IMG/VR virus record: IMGVR_UViG_2548876856_000011
Span: 1-13,784 of that record
Direction: 5' to 3' (one strand)
Length of the DNA stretch: 13,784 nucleotides
DNA from: a virus
Taxonomy: Duplodnaviria > Heunggongvirae > Uroviricota > Caudoviricetes
Shown one piece after another: positions 7,164-9,635 of the stretch. Made by a program: the position numbers and the translations under genes. Below the pieces are notes generated by a model, which saw only the letters and a program-made list of their open reading frames with translations, ran no database searches and was not told the origin of the DNA. The stretch's first letter is position 1. The number at the start of each line of letters is the position of its first letter.

Positions 7164-9635
7164 ATGAGTAAAGTCTTTATTTGCGCCGCTATTCCTGACG
7201 AACTGGCAACAAGGGAAGAAGGCGCTGTGGCTGTAGCCACAGCCATTGAAGCTGGCGACGAACGCCGTGCTCGAGCAAAATTTCACTGGCAATTCCTGGA
7301 ACATTATCCGGCTGCTCAGGACTGCGCTTATAAATTTATTGTCTGCGAGGATAAACCTGGCATACCCCGCCCTGCCCTCGATTCATGGGATGCTGAATAT
7401 ATGCAGGAAAACCGCTGGGATGAGGATTCTGCTTCTTTTGTCCCGGTTGAGACTGAATCCGATCCGATGAACGTCACTTTTGACAAGCTGGCCCCTGAAG
7501 TACAGAACGCTGTCATGGTTAAGTTCGACACATGTGAAAACATCACCGTTGATATGGTGATTAGCGCACAGGAATTGTTGCAGGAAGACATGGCAACATT
7601 CGACGGACATATCGTTGAAGCGTTGATGAAAATGCCAGAAGTTAACGCCATGTATCCGGAGCTTAAGCTGCATGCCATCGGGTGGGTTAAGCATAAATGT
7701 AAGCCTGGTGCCAAATGGCCCGAAATTCAGGCAGAGATGCGCATCTGGAAAAAACGTCGCGAAGGTGAACGCAAGGAAACCGGAAAATACACGTCTGTTG
7801 TTGATCTCGCCCGCGCCAGAGTCAATCAACAGCACACTGAAAATTCAACAGGAAAAATCAGCCTGGTCATTGCTGCCATTCATCGCGAATACAAGCAGAC
7901 ATGGAAAACACTGGATGACGAACTGGCCTACGCTCTCTGGCCTGGTGATGTGGATGCCGGAAACATTGACGGCAGCATCCATCGCTGGGCAAAAAATGAA
8001 GTTATCGACAACTACCGCGAAGACTGGAAGCGTATCTCGGCATCAATGCGCAAACAGCCTGATGCCCTTCGCTACGACCGCCAGACTATTTTTGGCCTTG
8101 TCCGTGAACGTCCGATCGACATTCACAAAGACCCTGTGGCACTGAACAAATACATTACTGAATACCTGACTACAAAGGGCGTGTTTGAAGATGAAGGAAC
8201 AAATCAGAGCGCAACTGATACTCTCTCGTCGCCAGTACCAGAAACTGATGCAGTGGAAACGGCAATTCCGGACAACGAAAAAACCGAATGCAAAGTGGAA
8301 GTCGAACCATCTGTAGAGCGTGAGGGGCCGTTCTACTTCCTCTTCACCGACAAGGATGGCGAAAAATACGGTCGCGCAAACAAACTTTCTGGTCTGGATA
8401 AGGCACTGGCTGCCGGGGCTACTGAAATCACGAAAGAAGAATATTTCGCCCGCAAAAACGGTACATACTCAGGTTCACAACAAAATACTGGTGCATCTGA
8501 CACGACCGCACAACCAGAGCCGGTAAAAGTTACCGCTGACGAAGTAAACAAAATTATGCAGGCAGCCAATATCAGCCAGCCTGACGCCGATAAGTTGCTT
8601 GCTGCCTCTCGCGGAGAATTTGTTGCAGGGATTAGCGACCCGAATGATCCGAAATGGGTTAAGGGGATCCAGACCCGCGATTCTGTAAACCAGAACCAGC
8701 ATGAATCGGAACGGAACTACCAAAAAGCGGAACAAAACAGCCCAAATGCGTTACAAAACGAGCCAGAAACGAAACAGCCTGAACCAGTGGCGCAACAGGA
8801 AGTGGAAAAAGTCTGCACCGCCTGCGGTCAGACCGGCGGCGGCAACTGCCCTGATTGTGGCGCGGTGATGGGCGACGCAACATACCAGGAAACATTCGAT
8901 GAAGAGTATCAGGTTGAAGTTCAGGAAGATGATCCGGAGAAAATGGAAGGCGCTGAACATCCACACAAGGAGAACACTGGCGGCAATCAGCATCACGATA
9001 GCGATAATGAAACTGGCGAGACGGCAGATCACTCAATTAAGGTGAACGGTCATCAAGAAATCACATCCACCAGCAGGACGTGTGACCATCTAATGATCGA
9101 CCTTGAAACCATGGGAAAAAATCCTGATGCCCCGATCATCTCAATAGGTGCAATATTTTTCGATCCGCAAACCGGAGATATGGGACCGGAATTTAGTAAG
9201 ACTATCGATCTGGAAACTGCTGGCGGAGTCATTGATCGGGACACCATTAAATGGTGGCTTAAGCAATCACGCGAAGCGCAATCTGCCATTATGACCGATG
9301 AAATCCAGTTAGATGATGCACTGTTACAATTGCGGGAATTTATCGACGAAAACTCCGGTGAATTTTTTGTTCAGGTCTGGGGAAATGGAGCCAACTTCGA
9401 CAACACGATTTTGCGCCGTTCATACGAACGGCAGGGGATCCCCTGCCCGTGGCGTTACTACAACGATCGCGATGTACGCACAATCGTTGAGCTGGGGAAA
9501 GCCATAGACTTCGATGCCAGAACGGCTATTCCATTCGAAGGTGAGCGCCATAATGCACTTGATGACGCCCGTTACCAGGCAAAATACGTTTCAGTTATCT
9601 GGCAAAAACTGATCCCGAGTCAGGCTGATTTTTAA
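7164..9635 (+). CDS. RecE-like phage protein with a C-terminal DEDDh (DnaQ-like) 3'-5' exonuclease domain and a central CxxC...CxxC zinc ribbon (intact ydfE-type gene, often labelled exodeoxyribonuclease VIII)
   Basis: 823 aa from ATG 7164 (MSKVFICAAIP...) with GAGG RBS. C-terminal motifs MIDLETMG (from 9093), WGNGANFDN (about 9381..9401) and HNALDDARY (about 9549..9566) give D-E-D-D-h. Zinc ribbon CTACGQTGGGNCPDCG at 8814..8861. Central region resembles RecE of Rac as I remember it. Confidence 0.85.
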   Translation: MSKVFICAAIPDELATREEGAVAVATAIEAGDERRARAKFHWQFLEHYPAAQDCAYKFIVCEDKPGIPRPALDSWDAEYMQENRWDEDSASFVPVETESDPMNVTFDKLAPEVQNAVMVKFDTCENITVDMVISAQELLQEDMATFDGHIVEALMKMPEVNAMYPELKLHAIGWVKHKCKPGAKWPEIQAEMRIWKKRREGERKETGKYTSVVDLARARVNQQHTENSTGKISLVIAAIHREYKQTWKTLDDELAYALWPGDVDAGNIDGSIHRWAKNEVIDNYREDWKRISASMRKQPDALRYDRQTIFGLVRERPIDIHKDPVALNKYITEYLTTKGVFEDEGTNQSATDTLSSPVPETDAVETAIPDNEKTECKVEVEPSVEREGPFYFLFTDKDGEKYGRANKLSGLDKALAAGATEITKEEYFARKNGTYSGSQQNTGASDTTAQPEPVKVTADEVNKIMQAANISQPDADKLLAASRGEFVAGISDPNDPKWVKGIQTRDSVNQNQHESERNYQKAEQNSPNALQNEPETKQPEPVAQQEVEKVCTACGQTGGGNCPDCGAVMGDATYQETFDEEYQVEVQEDDPEKMEGAEHPHKENTGGNQHHDSDNETGETADHSIKVNGHQEITSTSRTCDHLMIDLETMGKNPDAPIISIGAIFFDPQTGDMGPEFSKTIDLETAGGVIDRDTIKWWLKQSREAQSAIMTDEIQLDDALLQLREFIDENSGEFFVQVWGNGANFDNTILRRSYERQGIPCPWRYYNDRDVRTIVELGKAIDFDARTAIPFEGERHNALDDARYQAKYVSVIWQKLIPSQADF

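What the first reader, a model, noticed from the sequence alone, without database searches (positions are those of the whole stretch)
7164..9635. RecE-like protein with a DEDDh 3'-5' exonuclease domain and no RecT partner
The N-terminal and central parts look RecE-like (from memory), including a CxxC...CxxC zinc ribbon, but the C-terminus is a DnaQ-type DEDDh domain rather than the PD-(D/E)XK 5'-3' nuclease of RecE. No recT or bet-like gene follows; xis comes next. A 3'-5' exonuclease would not produce the 3' tails that annealing recombination needs, so the function is probably not RecET-type recombination. In K-12 the equivalent gene (ydfE) is only a fragment.
Basis: partly seen in the sequence, partly recalled or inferred. 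Interest (0 to 1): 0.7.

Follow-up and report, generated by a model that had tools for sequence, protein, structure and literature searches.

The report
Prophage RecE-scaffold protein with 3'-5' exonuclease
This is the intact form of the E. coli K-12 pseudogene ydfE: a very common but unstudied prophage protein that joins most of the non-catalytic part of the recombination enzyme RecE to a 3'-5' exonuclease of opposite polarity, and it never has the strand-annealing partner that RecE always has.

Summary
Bases 7164-9635 (+) encode an 823-aa protein. Residues ~163-625 are homologous to the non-catalytic part of Rac RecE, including the CxxC-x7-CxxC ribbon. Residues 641-823 are a complete DEDDh exonuclease of the Rv2179c/T4 DexA family (D646, E648, D746, H796, D801) in place of RecE's PD-(D/E)XK nuclease. 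Residues 1-~160 are not RecE-like.

The gene is the last before xis/int in a DicA-DicF-DicB-YdfD early-left operon of a decayed Qin-like prophage. K-12 ydfE is the same gene cut by IS2. At least 80% of it is present in 3533 of 5426 complete E. coli genomes and in viable phages (mEp460, Tritos). Its folded modules are under purifying selection.

None of 85 loci with this domain has RecT, Bet, Erf, Gam or a Rad52-like gene. All 80 RecE-nuclease loci have RecT.

The same scaffold carries three alternative C-termini: RecE nuclease, DEDDh, or a probable Rad52-like annealase.

Most likely it is an annealase-independent DNA 3'-end-processing enzyme in the phage recombination slot. Its biological role is untested. 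RefSeq already annotates it as an exonuclease, and Pfam has YdfE_N and YdfE_C families. Moderate interest; a new variant of a known kind.

The parts
7151..7154 (+). Shine-Dalgarno-like GAGG, 9 nt before the ATG
   Evidence: Read directly from the sequence.
7164..9635 (+). Gene for the 823-aa exonuclease, the intact form of ydfE (RefSeq WP_024232529.1, 'exonuclease')
   Evidence: ORF and translation. 100% match in E. coli AMSHJX01. PHROG 2082 matches over the full length.
7164..7787 (+). aa 1-208: N-terminal alpha/beta plus helical domain (YdfE_N type). Residues 1 to about 160 have no RecE counterpart.
7899..8183 (+). aa 246-340: helical domain homologous to RecE ~278-360 (YdfE_C type)
   Evidence: AF2 pLDDT 92-97. 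BLASTP and hhalign against RecE. Found in all scaffold classes.
8325..8459 (+). aa 388-432: small beta-beta-alpha-beta-alpha domain (GPFYF...GRANK motif). Optional module, absent from K-12 RecE.
   Evidence: AF2 pLDDT 94-97. dN/dS 0.08 for aa 386-435. BLASTP leaves it as a gap against RecE. Present in many scaffold proteins.
8598..8660 (+). aa 479-499: nearly invariant peptide LAAxRGE[FY]VxGISDPxDPKW[VI], flanked by variable low-complexity sequence. Candidate docking motif.
   Evidence: Alignment of 24 scaffold proteins of all classes, including RecE 459-479. dN/dS 0.13 for aa 455-510.
8814..8858 (+). aa 551-565: zinc ribbon CTAC-x7-CPDC
   Evidence: Cysteine positions. Same ribbon in RecE and in 13 representatives. 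dN/dS 0.16 for aa 549-570.
8874..9083 (+). aa 571-640: acidic, probably disordered linker (net charge about -14 over aa 576-640). The point where the nuclease is swapped relative to RecE.
   Evidence: Composition. dN/dS 0.84. The RecE alignment ends at aa 622-625.
9084..9632 (+). aa 641-823: DEDDh 3'-5' exonuclease domain of the Rv2179c / T4 DexA family. Catalytic codons: D646 (9099-9101), E648 (9105-9107), D746 (9399-9401), H796 (9549-9551), D801 (9564-9566).
   Evidence: Pfam PF16473, E 3.8e-67. The only solved relative found by sequence is T4 DexA 8kel (E 1.2e-6). Residue mapping. dN/dS 0.09.
5487..7071 (+). Upstream part of the same early-left operon: promoter-like site 5487-5515, ydfA/B/C, DicF sRNA 6469-6520, dicB 6695-6883, ydfD 6880-7071 (internal stop)
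   Evidence: RefSeq annotation of the identical locus. Rfam DicF 76.7 bits. Pfam DicB. The promoter scan found no plus-strand site between ydfD and the gene.
9694..10947 (+). Downstream genes: DUF4224 protein in the excisionase position (9694-9897) and a frameshifted tyrosine integrase (9897-10947), next to tRNA-Ser (10975-11064, minus strand)
   Evidence: Pfam, RefSeq annotation, ARAGORN.

Best explanation
The gene encodes an active, modular phage early protein, the intact YdfE.

SHOWN. It lies at the end of the repressor-controlled early-left operon (cI/DicA-like repressor, ydfABC, DicF, dicB, ydfD, this gene, xis, int). That is the slot where other lambdoid phages carry exo-bet or recE-recT. 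The C-terminal 183 residues are a complete DEDDh domain. The first 640 residues are three confidently folded modules, a conserved peptide and a zinc ribbon, strung on fast-evolving acidic linkers. From about residue 163 on, this is the same scaffold that carries the 5'-3' nuclease in RecE.

INFERRED.
- The DEDDh domain removes nucleotides from free 3'-OH ends by two-metal catalysis (D646, E648, D746 and D801 bind the metals, H796 is the general base).
- The substrate is most probably DNA, because the nearest characterised relatives (T4 DexA, and E. coli/P2-prophage EcD at about 37-40% identity depending on the alignment) are DNA exonucleases.
- The scaffold brings whichever catalytic domain it carries to a common target, such as linear DNA ends or an unknown common partner bound by the conserved peptide.
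- The protein therefore acts as an annealase-independent DNA-end processor of opposite polarity to RecE during lytic growth. It removes 3' tails or exposes 5' tails. This either supports annealase-free joining and repair of phage DNA ends, or withholds 3' tails from host pathways.

How sure: identity and architecture about 0.9; DNA 3'-5' exonuclease activity about 0.7; the end-processing/recombination-slot role about 0.4-0.5.
For: - Domain searches and residues.
- RecE homology.
- Operon position, identical in K-12 Qin, phage Tritos, mEp460, vB_EcoS-640R1 and divergent relatives.
- No plus-strand promoter-like site directly upstream.
- Prevalence: at least 80% of the gene in 3533 of 5426 complete E. 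coli genomes, and in viable phages.
- ORF intact in 74 of 83 loci.
- Purifying selection on the modules (dN/dS 0.08-0.16, DEDDh 0.09) and relaxed linkers (0.45-0.84).
- Confident AF2 model of three scaffold domains.
- Modular family with interchangeable N-termini and three C-terminal enzyme types, all in the same operon slot.
- Strict covariation: RecE nuclease with RecT in 80 of 80 loci plus one divergent case; DEDDh with no RecT, Bet, Erf, Gam, Abc2 or Rad52-like gene in 0 of 85 loci plus four divergent loci.
- The full-length RecE scaffold is reported to enhance linear-linear recombination (review PMC11611040).
- A 3'-5' exonuclease (XthA) is required for RecA/RecET-independent joining in E. 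coli (PMC6379578).
Against: - No biochemical or genetic data exist for this protein. Literature searches found no functional study.
- The Pfam family is named after an RNA exonuclease, so RNA substrates are not excluded.
- The scaffold has no solved or annotated structural relative, so its targeting role is inferred only from its fusion partners.
- The two 80-locus samples are close relatives (99-100% identical catalytic domains), so the covariation rests on few independent lineages. Only five divergent loci support it further.
- Annealases outside the families tested could have been missed.
- A published claim gives a relative (EcD) a defence role instead (PMC12153337).
Confidence: 0.5

Rival explanations
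1. Inter-phage conflict nuclease ('HREX'-like). The DEDDh domain selectively degrades DNA of invading phages, for example 5hmC-modified T-even DNA, so the prophage protects its host. This is what Kang et al. 2025 claim for the stand-alone homologue EcD.
For: - The C-terminal domain is about 37-40% identical to the EcD-like protein recovered from the paper's primer, and belongs to the DexA family.
- EcD is reported to digest T4 DNA and protect against T4 (PMC12153337).
- The gene stays intact in a decayed prophage whose int and ydfD are broken.
- It is present in about two-thirds of complete E. coli genomes.
Against: - The residues the paper ties to 5hmC recognition are not kept. DexA W152 aligns with Y766 (Y, C or W in relatives). 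DexA D169 aligns with K779, or falls in a gap, and is never acidic in the fusion proteins.
- The tetramer residue D90, which is lost in EcD (A78), is retained here as D718.
- The gene lies at the end of a repressor-controlled early operon with no promoter-like site of its own, so it should be silent in a lysogen.
- No PADLOC match.
- EcD itself turns out to be an early-region gene of P2-like prophages.
Confidence: 0.15
2. DexA-like scavenging. The enzyme finishes the breakdown of host or damaged DNA into nucleotides for phage replication, and has no role at recombination intermediates.
For: [quoted passage not shown]
Against: - Lambdoid phages are not known to degrade the host chromosome (general knowledge).
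- This reading does not explain the 640-residue conserved scaffold shared with RecE and with a Rad52-like fusion, nor the fixed place in the recombination slot.
Confidence: 0.1
3. RNA 3'-5' exonuclease. Like Rv2179c, the founder of the Pfam family, the domain trims RNA 3' ends, for example of phage or host transcripts or small RNAs made from the same operon.
For: - The best Pfam family is named '3'-5' exoribonuclease Rv2179c-like'.
- RefSeq names some copies '3'-5' exoribonuclease domain-containing protein'.
Against: - Sequence searches of the PDB, with the protein alone and with a profile, recover only the DNA exonuclease DexA with significance and no Rv2179c entry.
- The closest characterised homologues act on DNA.
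- The scaffold's other fusion partners are DNA enzymes.
Confidence: 0.08
4. Decaying relic. The ORF is an accidental mosaic left by recombination between recE and an exonuclease gene, and has no function.
For: The window's prophage is defective, and K-12 carries only a fragment.
Against: - Intact in 74 of 83 loci and in viable phages.
- dN/dS is 0.09-0.16 on every folded module.
- The architecture is conserved in relatives down to 59% identity, with all catalytic residues kept.
Confidence: 0.02

Closest known systems
RecE (exodeoxyribonuclease VIII) of the Rac prophage, E. coli K-12
   Same: - Homologous scaffold from about aa 163 to 625. Residues 474-622 are 75.6% identical to RecE 454-588, including the LAAxRGEFVxGISDPNDPKWV peptide and the zinc ribbon.
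- Same place in a lambdoid early-left operon, just upstream of xis-int.
   Different: - The C-terminal PD-(D/E)XK 5'-3' nuclease (RecE ~600-866) is replaced by a DEDDh domain.
- No RecT follows.
- The first ~160 residues are unrelated.
- An extra small domain (aa 388-432) is present.
- The NCBIfam RecE equivalog scores 283 bits against a cut-off of 1269.
YdfE pseudogene (b1577) of the Qin prophage, E. coli K-12
   Same: Same gene and same operon (dicA-ydfABC-dicF-dicB-ydfD-ydfE-intQ). The first 767 nt are 98.6% identical in K-12-lineage strains.
   Different: The K-12 copy is cut by IS2E and lacks everything beyond roughly residue 255, including the exonuclease domain.
T4 DexA (exonuclease A; PDB 8kel, 8ken)
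   Same: Same DEDDh family. All five catalytic residues align. It is the only solved relative found by sequence.
   Different: - Only 24-25% identical.
- DexA is a 227-aa stand-alone protein with extra loops.
- The 5hmC-recognition residues W152 and D169 are not conserved here.
EcD, the 'HREX' exonuclease of Kang et al. 2025 (GenBank HAK9828821.1 per the paper; a matching 189-aa protein was recovered here from IMG/VR loci)
   Same: About 37-40% identical over ~180 residues, depending on the alignment. Same catalytic residues. Also prophage-borne.
   Different: - Stand-alone and 189 aa, in P2-like early regions next to a Dam methylase.
- It has A78 where this protein keeps D718, and W132/E145 where this protein has Y766/K779.
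Rv2179c of Mycobacterium tuberculosis (founder of Pfam PF16473)
   Same: Same Pfam family.
   Different: It is named a 3'-5' exoribonuclease in Pfam and, from my own knowledge, is a stand-alone protein. It was not recovered in sequence searches of the PDB with this domain.

Membership tests
RecE / exodeoxyribonuclease VIII (NCBIfam NF007259 equivalog) | C-terminal PD-(D/E)XK 5'-3' nuclease domain (RecE ~600-866) | tested here: not met
   No alignment to RecE 592-866. No tblastn hit of the RecE nuclease in the window. A DEDDh domain occupies its place.
RecE / exodeoxyribonuclease VIII (NCBIfam NF007259 equivalog) | Whole-protein score at or above the curated equivalog cut-off | tested here: not met
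   282.9 bits against a cut-off of 1269. Only model positions 271-602 of 877 match.
RecE / exodeoxyribonuclease VIII (NCBIfam NF007259 equivalog) | Non-catalytic middle region with conserved peptide and zinc ribbon | tested here: met
   BLASTP E 2e-62. 75.6% identity over aa 474-622. hhalign probability 98.6% from about aa 163.
Two-component phage recombinase (exonuclease plus adjacent annealase: Red, RecET, Erf types) | A single-strand annealing protein gene next to the exonuclease gene | tested here: not met
   No RecT, Bet, Erf or Rad52-like hit in the window, in 84 related loci, or in four divergent loci. The positive control gave 80 of 80 RecE-nuclease loci with RecT.
Two-component phage recombinase (exonuclease plus adjacent annealase: Red, RecET, Erf types) | 5'-3' resection that leaves 3' tails | not testable with these tools
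   Polarity is inferred from the DEDDh fold to be 3'-5'. It needs an enzyme assay.
DEDDh (DnaQ-like) exonucleases, Pfam PF16473 Rv2179c-like | Profile match above the gathering score over the whole domain | tested here: met
   225.9 bits against 27, profile positions 2-177 of 177.
DEDDh (DnaQ-like) exonucleases, Pfam PF16473 Rv2179c-like | Exo I DxE, Exo II D, and Exo III H-x4-D catalytic residues | tested here: met
   D646, E648, D746, H796 and D801. Invariant in six fusion proteins, the EcD-like protein and DexA.
DEDDh (DnaQ-like) exonucleases, Pfam PF16473 Rv2179c-like | 3'-5' exonuclease activity, and the substrate (DNA or RNA) | not testable with these tools
The nearest characterised relatives act on DNA.
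DEDDh (DnaQ-like) exonucleases, Pfam PF16473 Rv2179c-like | DnaQ-like fold of the C-terminal domain in a confident model | tested here: inconclusive
   The only model that includes this domain was the single-sequence run, which failed (mean pLDDT 35). The assignment rests on sequence profiles.
HREX / EcD-type 5hmC-DNA-specific defence exonuclease (Kang et al. 2025) | Loss of the DexA tetramer residue D90 (A78 in EcD) | tested here: not met
   D718 is retained here and in all fusion relatives.
HREX / EcD-type 5hmC-DNA-specific defence exonuclease (Kang et al. 2025) | Trp (DexA W152) and an acidic residue (DexA D169) for 5hmC recognition | tested here: not met
   Y766 (Y, C or W in relatives). 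K779 or a gap (K, N or S in relatives). The alignment around D169 is uncertain.
HREX / EcD-type 5hmC-DNA-specific defence exonuclease (Kang et al. 2025) | Protection against T4 and selective digestion of modified DNA | not testable with these tools
   Needs plaque assays and nuclease assays.
YdfE family (Pfam PF27430 YdfE_N, PF27432 YdfE_C) | Matches to both YdfE domain models | tested here: inconclusive
   The models are missing from the local Pfam copy. The precomputed hits are on proteins 83-98% identical to aa 1-360, and the family names come from related loci. The gene is the same as K-12 ydfE by DNA identity.

The most novel reading that the evidence does not exclude
The RecE/YdfE scaffold is a general delivery platform for DNA-end enzymes, and its DEDDh version defines a phage recombination or end-joining route that needs no dedicated annealase. 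It would resect 3'-5', expose 5' tails, and rely on the scaffold (conserved docking peptide, zinc ribbon) to bridge ends or recruit a host factor. That would be a third kind of lambdoid recombination module, present in about two-thirds of complete E. coli genomes. It would also say what the long-unexplained N-terminal 600 residues of RecE are for.
Probability: 0.15. Interest if true: 0.8.

Novelty: new variant of a known kind. Interest (0 to 1): 0.5.

Why it matters
RecE's N-terminal ~600 residues have had no assigned function for decades, although they boost linear-linear recombineering (PMC11611040). This gene shows that nature re-uses that scaffold with a nuclease of opposite polarity and, in a third class, with a probable Rad52-like annealase. 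The partner annealase gene comes and goes in step with the catalytic domain.

That gives a natural domain-swap series for asking what the scaffold binds. It also points to one very common, unstudied early gene of E. coli prophages, including those of EHEC strains, whose activity can be tested directly.

It also puts the recent 'HREX' defence claim in context: the EcD gene of that study lies in P2-like prophage early regions.

Tried and rejected
1. Single-sequence AlphaFold2 of the full 823 aa failed (mean pLDDT 35). No confident model of the C-terminal domain was obtained, so its fold rests on profile matches.
3. The first homologue search with aa 1-360 returned only near-identical E. coli fragments. 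The representative library was needed to see the diversity.
4. Sequence and profile searches of the PDB with the third-class C-terminus found nothing. Its Rad52-like assignment rests on sub-threshold Pfam hits in 10 of 12 members (best E 0.0017, 18.3 bits against a cut-off of 20.3) and on a motif I recognise from memory.
5. PADLOC gave no match for the protein.
6. Literature searches for ydfE, PF16473 and Rv2179c found no functional study of this gene.
7. A defence (HREX) assignment was considered and rejected as the primary reading, because the specificity residues are not kept and the gene sits in a repressed early operon.
8. 'Pseudogene or relic' was rejected on the dN/dS values and on intactness.
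9. An own promoter or a terminator between ydfD and the gene was looked for. Only a 5-bp-stem terminator-like site was found (7109-7122), within chance expectation.
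Full report
**1. The observation**

The longest ORF over the region runs from 7128 to 9635 on the plus strand. The likely start is the ATG at 7164, nine bases after GAGG (7151-7154). The stop is TAA at 9633-9635, which gives 823 aa.

Pfam finds one strong domain. PF16473 (Rv2179c-like 3'-5' exonuclease) matches aa 642-813 and covers profile positions 2-177 of 177, with E 3.8e-67 and 225.9 bits against a cut-off of 27. There is also a weak RNase_T match over the same stretch.

NCBIfam's RecE equivalog (NF007259) matches only aa 246-625, corresponding to model positions 271-602 of 877. 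It scores 283 bits against a cut-off of 1269.

BLASTP against K-12 RecE aligns aa 262-625 with RecE 278-591 (E 2e-62). Residues 474-622 are 75.6% identical to RecE 454-588. A profile of the N-terminal family aligns from about aa 163 with RecE from residue 175 (hhalign probability 98.6%). Residues 1 to about 160 have no detectable RecE counterpart, and nothing aligns with the RecE nuclease.

The four cysteines C551, C554, C562 and C565 form CxxC-x7-CxxC, as in RecE.

The catalytic set D646, E648, D746, H796 and D801 aligns with T4 DexA D7, E9, D119, H186 and D191, the residues named in PMC12153337. A first pairwise MAFFT run misplaced the last motif; the three-way and eight-way alignments place it correctly.

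**2. Where it sits**

The window is 100% identical to a locus of E. coli AMSHJX01. RefSeq annotates there, in order:
- a cI/DicA-like repressor
- ydfA, ydfB and ydfC
- dicB
- ydfD, with an internal stop
- this gene, named 'exonuclease'
- a DUF4224 protein
- a frameshifted integrase
- tRNA-Ser and mtfA

Rfam finds DicF at 6469-6520. Pfam confirms DicB, DUF4224 and the integrase.

K-12 Qin has the same order, with ydfE as a pseudogene cut by IS2E. K-12-lineage genomes match only nt 1-767 of the gene, and IS2 follows.

The only plus-strand sigma-70-like site in 4900-10000 lies after the repressor gene (5487-5515). None lies between ydfD and the gene. The gene is therefore most likely the distal part of the repressor-controlled early-left transcript. 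This is an inference.

**3. How common and how alive**

At least 80% of the gene is present in 3533 of 5426 complete E. coli genomes, with up to 10 matching places per genome. It is also present in 17 phage records, including the viable phages Tritos, mEp460, HannyBb and Evi and the PPompW prophages.

In 83 related loci the ORF is intact in 74. Fifty-five are 823-831 aa with this N-terminus, and 19 are 812-818 aa with another N-terminus.

Among 43 distinct 823-aa alleles, dN/dS by region is:

| Region (aa) | dN/dS |
|---|---|
| 1-260 | 0.15 |
| 386-435 | 0.08 |
| 455-510 | 0.13 |
| zinc ribbon, 549-570 | 0.16 |
| DEDDh domain, 641-823 | 0.09 |
| linkers | 0.45-0.84 |

The loci were chosen by DEDDh similarity, so diversity in that domain is low.

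**4. Structure of the scaffold**

A single-sequence model of the whole protein failed (pLDDT 35). With an alignment of 29 diverse homologues (A3), aa 1-450 gave a mean pLDDT of 85.4. The model shows three folded units separated by disordered stretches:
- aa 1-208, alpha/beta plus helices
- aa 246-340, helical
- aa 388-432, a small beta-beta-alpha-beta-alpha unit

A short peptide, LAAxRGE[FY]VxGISDPxDPKW[VI] (aa 479-499), is nearly invariant in 24 scaffold proteins of every class. It is flanked by variable low-complexity sequence, which suggests a docking motif. This is an inference.

**5. The family is modular**

A search of 1.84 billion representative proteins with aa 1-640 found 246 relatives. 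Mapping modules onto the long ones shows:
- two alternative N-termini, this one or RecE's
- a shared helical domain
- an optional small domain
- the shared peptide
- an optional zinc ribbon

Several alternative C-termini occur:
- (a) DEDDh: P0121, P0122, P0128, P0136, P0143, P0248.
- (b) RecE-type PD-(D/E)XK: at least 11 representatives.
- (c) A ~200-residue domain with no Pfam hit at E 0.001. It matches Rad52_Rad22 (PF04098) below threshold in 10 of 12 members (best E 0.0017) and carries a KKSLTDAxKKALSxLGFSADVWLG motif. I read it as a probable Rad52-like annealase.
- A fourth type (P0125) has no recognisable enzyme domain.

Mixed combinations of N-terminus and catalytic domain also exist. 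P0128 has a K-12-like RecE N-terminus plus DEDDh. One IMG/VR locus has this N-terminus plus the RecE nuclease plus RecT.

**6. The partner gene covaries with the catalytic domain**

| Sample | Annealase or related gene found |
|---|---|
| Window, four annotated records and 80 IMG/VR loci with this DEDDh domain (85 in all, flanks up to 10 kb) | No RecT, Bet, Erf, lambda Exo, Gam, Abc2 or RecE nuclease; no Rad52-like hit with a profile of class (c) |
| 80 IMG/VR loci with the RecE nuclease | RecT in 80 of 80 |

Both samples consist of close relatives, so I also looked at divergent representatives:
- P0248 (DEDDh 59% identical), P0143 (72%) and P0122 (75%). Each lies after a kil-type (KilR or DicB) or other small early gene and directly before xis and/or int, with no annealase.
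- P0132 (this N-terminus plus a RecE-type nuclease). It is followed by a RecT-family gene (Pfam E 2e-36).
- P0129 (Rad52-like class). It is flanked by a weak Gam match and a Sipho_Gp157 gene, again before xis-int.

So all classes occupy the same recombination slot.

**7. Closest characterised relatives of the catalytic domain**

By sequence, the only solved relative is T4 DexA (8kel, E 1.2e-6). Adding EcD-like and DexA to a profile brings in only marginal DnaQ and PolC exonuclease hits and no Rv2179c entry.

Kang et al. 2025 (PMC12153337) report that DexA switches between a tetramer and a dimer. They also report that an E. coli homologue, EcD, digests 5hmC-DNA and protects against T4.

From their cloning primer I recovered a 189-aa protein (MIDTETLGNG...TTPFLNI) in IMG/VR. 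It has A78 at DexA D90, as the paper describes. The reverse primer differs from this gene's end by one base, so the identification is probable, not proven.

The C-terminal domain here is 37-40% identical to that protein and 24-25% identical to DexA, depending on the alignment. It keeps D718 at the tetramer position. It has Y766 for W152. It has K779, or a gap, for D169; the fusion relatives have K, N or S there. The published 5hmC specificity therefore cannot be transferred.

The EcD-like gene lies in P2-like prophage early regions, with Cox-like, DUF4406 and ParE-like genes nearby. Its neighbour is a Dam methylase that ends in a similar zinc ribbon.

**8. Interpretation**

Shown:
- the architecture
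- the intact catalytic residues
- the operon position
- the prevalence
- purifying selection
- the modular family
- the covariation between nuclease type and annealase gene

Inferred:
- The domain degrades DNA from 3' ends.
- The scaffold delivers it to the same target as RecE's nuclease.
- The protein processes DNA ends during lytic growth without an annealase of its own.

RecA- and RecET-independent in vivo joining in E. coli requires the 3'-5' exonuclease XthA (PMC6379578).

The rivals cannot be excluded without experiments. They are inter-phage defence, nucleotide scavenging and RNA trimming. A functionless relic is contradicted by the data.

**9. Novelty and score**

RefSeq already calls the protein '(3'-5') exonuclease'. 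Precomputed Pfam annotation lists Exonuc_VIII or YdfE_N/YdfE_C together with Rv2179c-like on relatives. The architecture is therefore recorded in databases.

I found no functional study. I also found no description of the three-way swap of catalytic domains on the RecE scaffold, or of its covariation with the annealase gene, though the searchable library is incomplete.

I rate it a new variant of a known kind, with interest 0.5.

Noticed in passing
window 6469-6520 (+), 6695-6883 (+), 6880-7071 (+): DicF sRNA (Rfam 76.7 bits) and dicB are intact upstream of the gene. ydfD carries an internal stop codon, so the operon is partly decayed while the exonuclease ORF stays whole.
   Followed up: partly
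window 9897-10947 (+), 10975-11064 (-), 12056-12131 (+), 12282-13559 (+): The prophage integrase is frameshifted and abuts tRNA-Ser(cga). A second, intact integrase follows tRNA-Asn(gtt) about 1.2 kb further on and probably marks the start of another island.
   Followed up: no
window 1-2700 (L001 1-4500): The late region of the prophage is gone. It is replaced by a DUF1627 fragment, a DUF5677 gene (1099-1941, minus strand) and an integrase fragment. Just outside the window lie an AAA ATPase and an HNH endonuclease pair, possibly a defence cassette.
   Followed up: no
L008, L013, L023, L024, L026, L029 (e.g. L026:5679-6248, minus strand): The 'bacterial' defence exonuclease EcD of Kang et al. 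2025 appears to be an early-region gene of P2-like prophages, with Cox-like, DUF4406 and ParE-like neighbours. It was recovered from the paper's forward primer, and the protein has A78 as the paper describes.
   Followed up: partly
L026:4465-5445 (-): The Dam (D12-class) methyltransferase next to the EcD-like gene ends in a CxxC...CxxC ribbon about 68% identical to the ribbon of this protein and of RecE. The ribbon seems to be a mobile module among phage DNA enzymes.
   Followed up: no
P0129, P0135, P0139, P0154, P0168, P0187, P0188, P0196, P0217, P0246, P0260, P0265 (alignment A2); locus L201:5650-7986: A third class of scaffold proteins ends in a probable Rad52-like annealase domain (sub-threshold PF04098 in 10 of 12 members). 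In L201 it is flanked by a weak Gam match and a Sipho_Gp157 gene. PHROGs labels these proteins 'exonuclease', probably wrongly.
   Followed up: partly
P0125; loci L202 and L203, 6001-8109: A fourth class has the scaffold and a 260-residue C-terminus with no recognisable enzyme domain (PHROG 26058, unknown function). It sits in the same KilR ... int slot.
   Followed up: no
window 8598-8660 (aa 479-499); RecE aa 459-479: The peptide LAAxRGE[FY]VxGISDPxDPKW[VI] is nearly invariant across all scaffold classes and sits inside variable low-complexity sequence. Its partner is unknown.
   Followed up: partly
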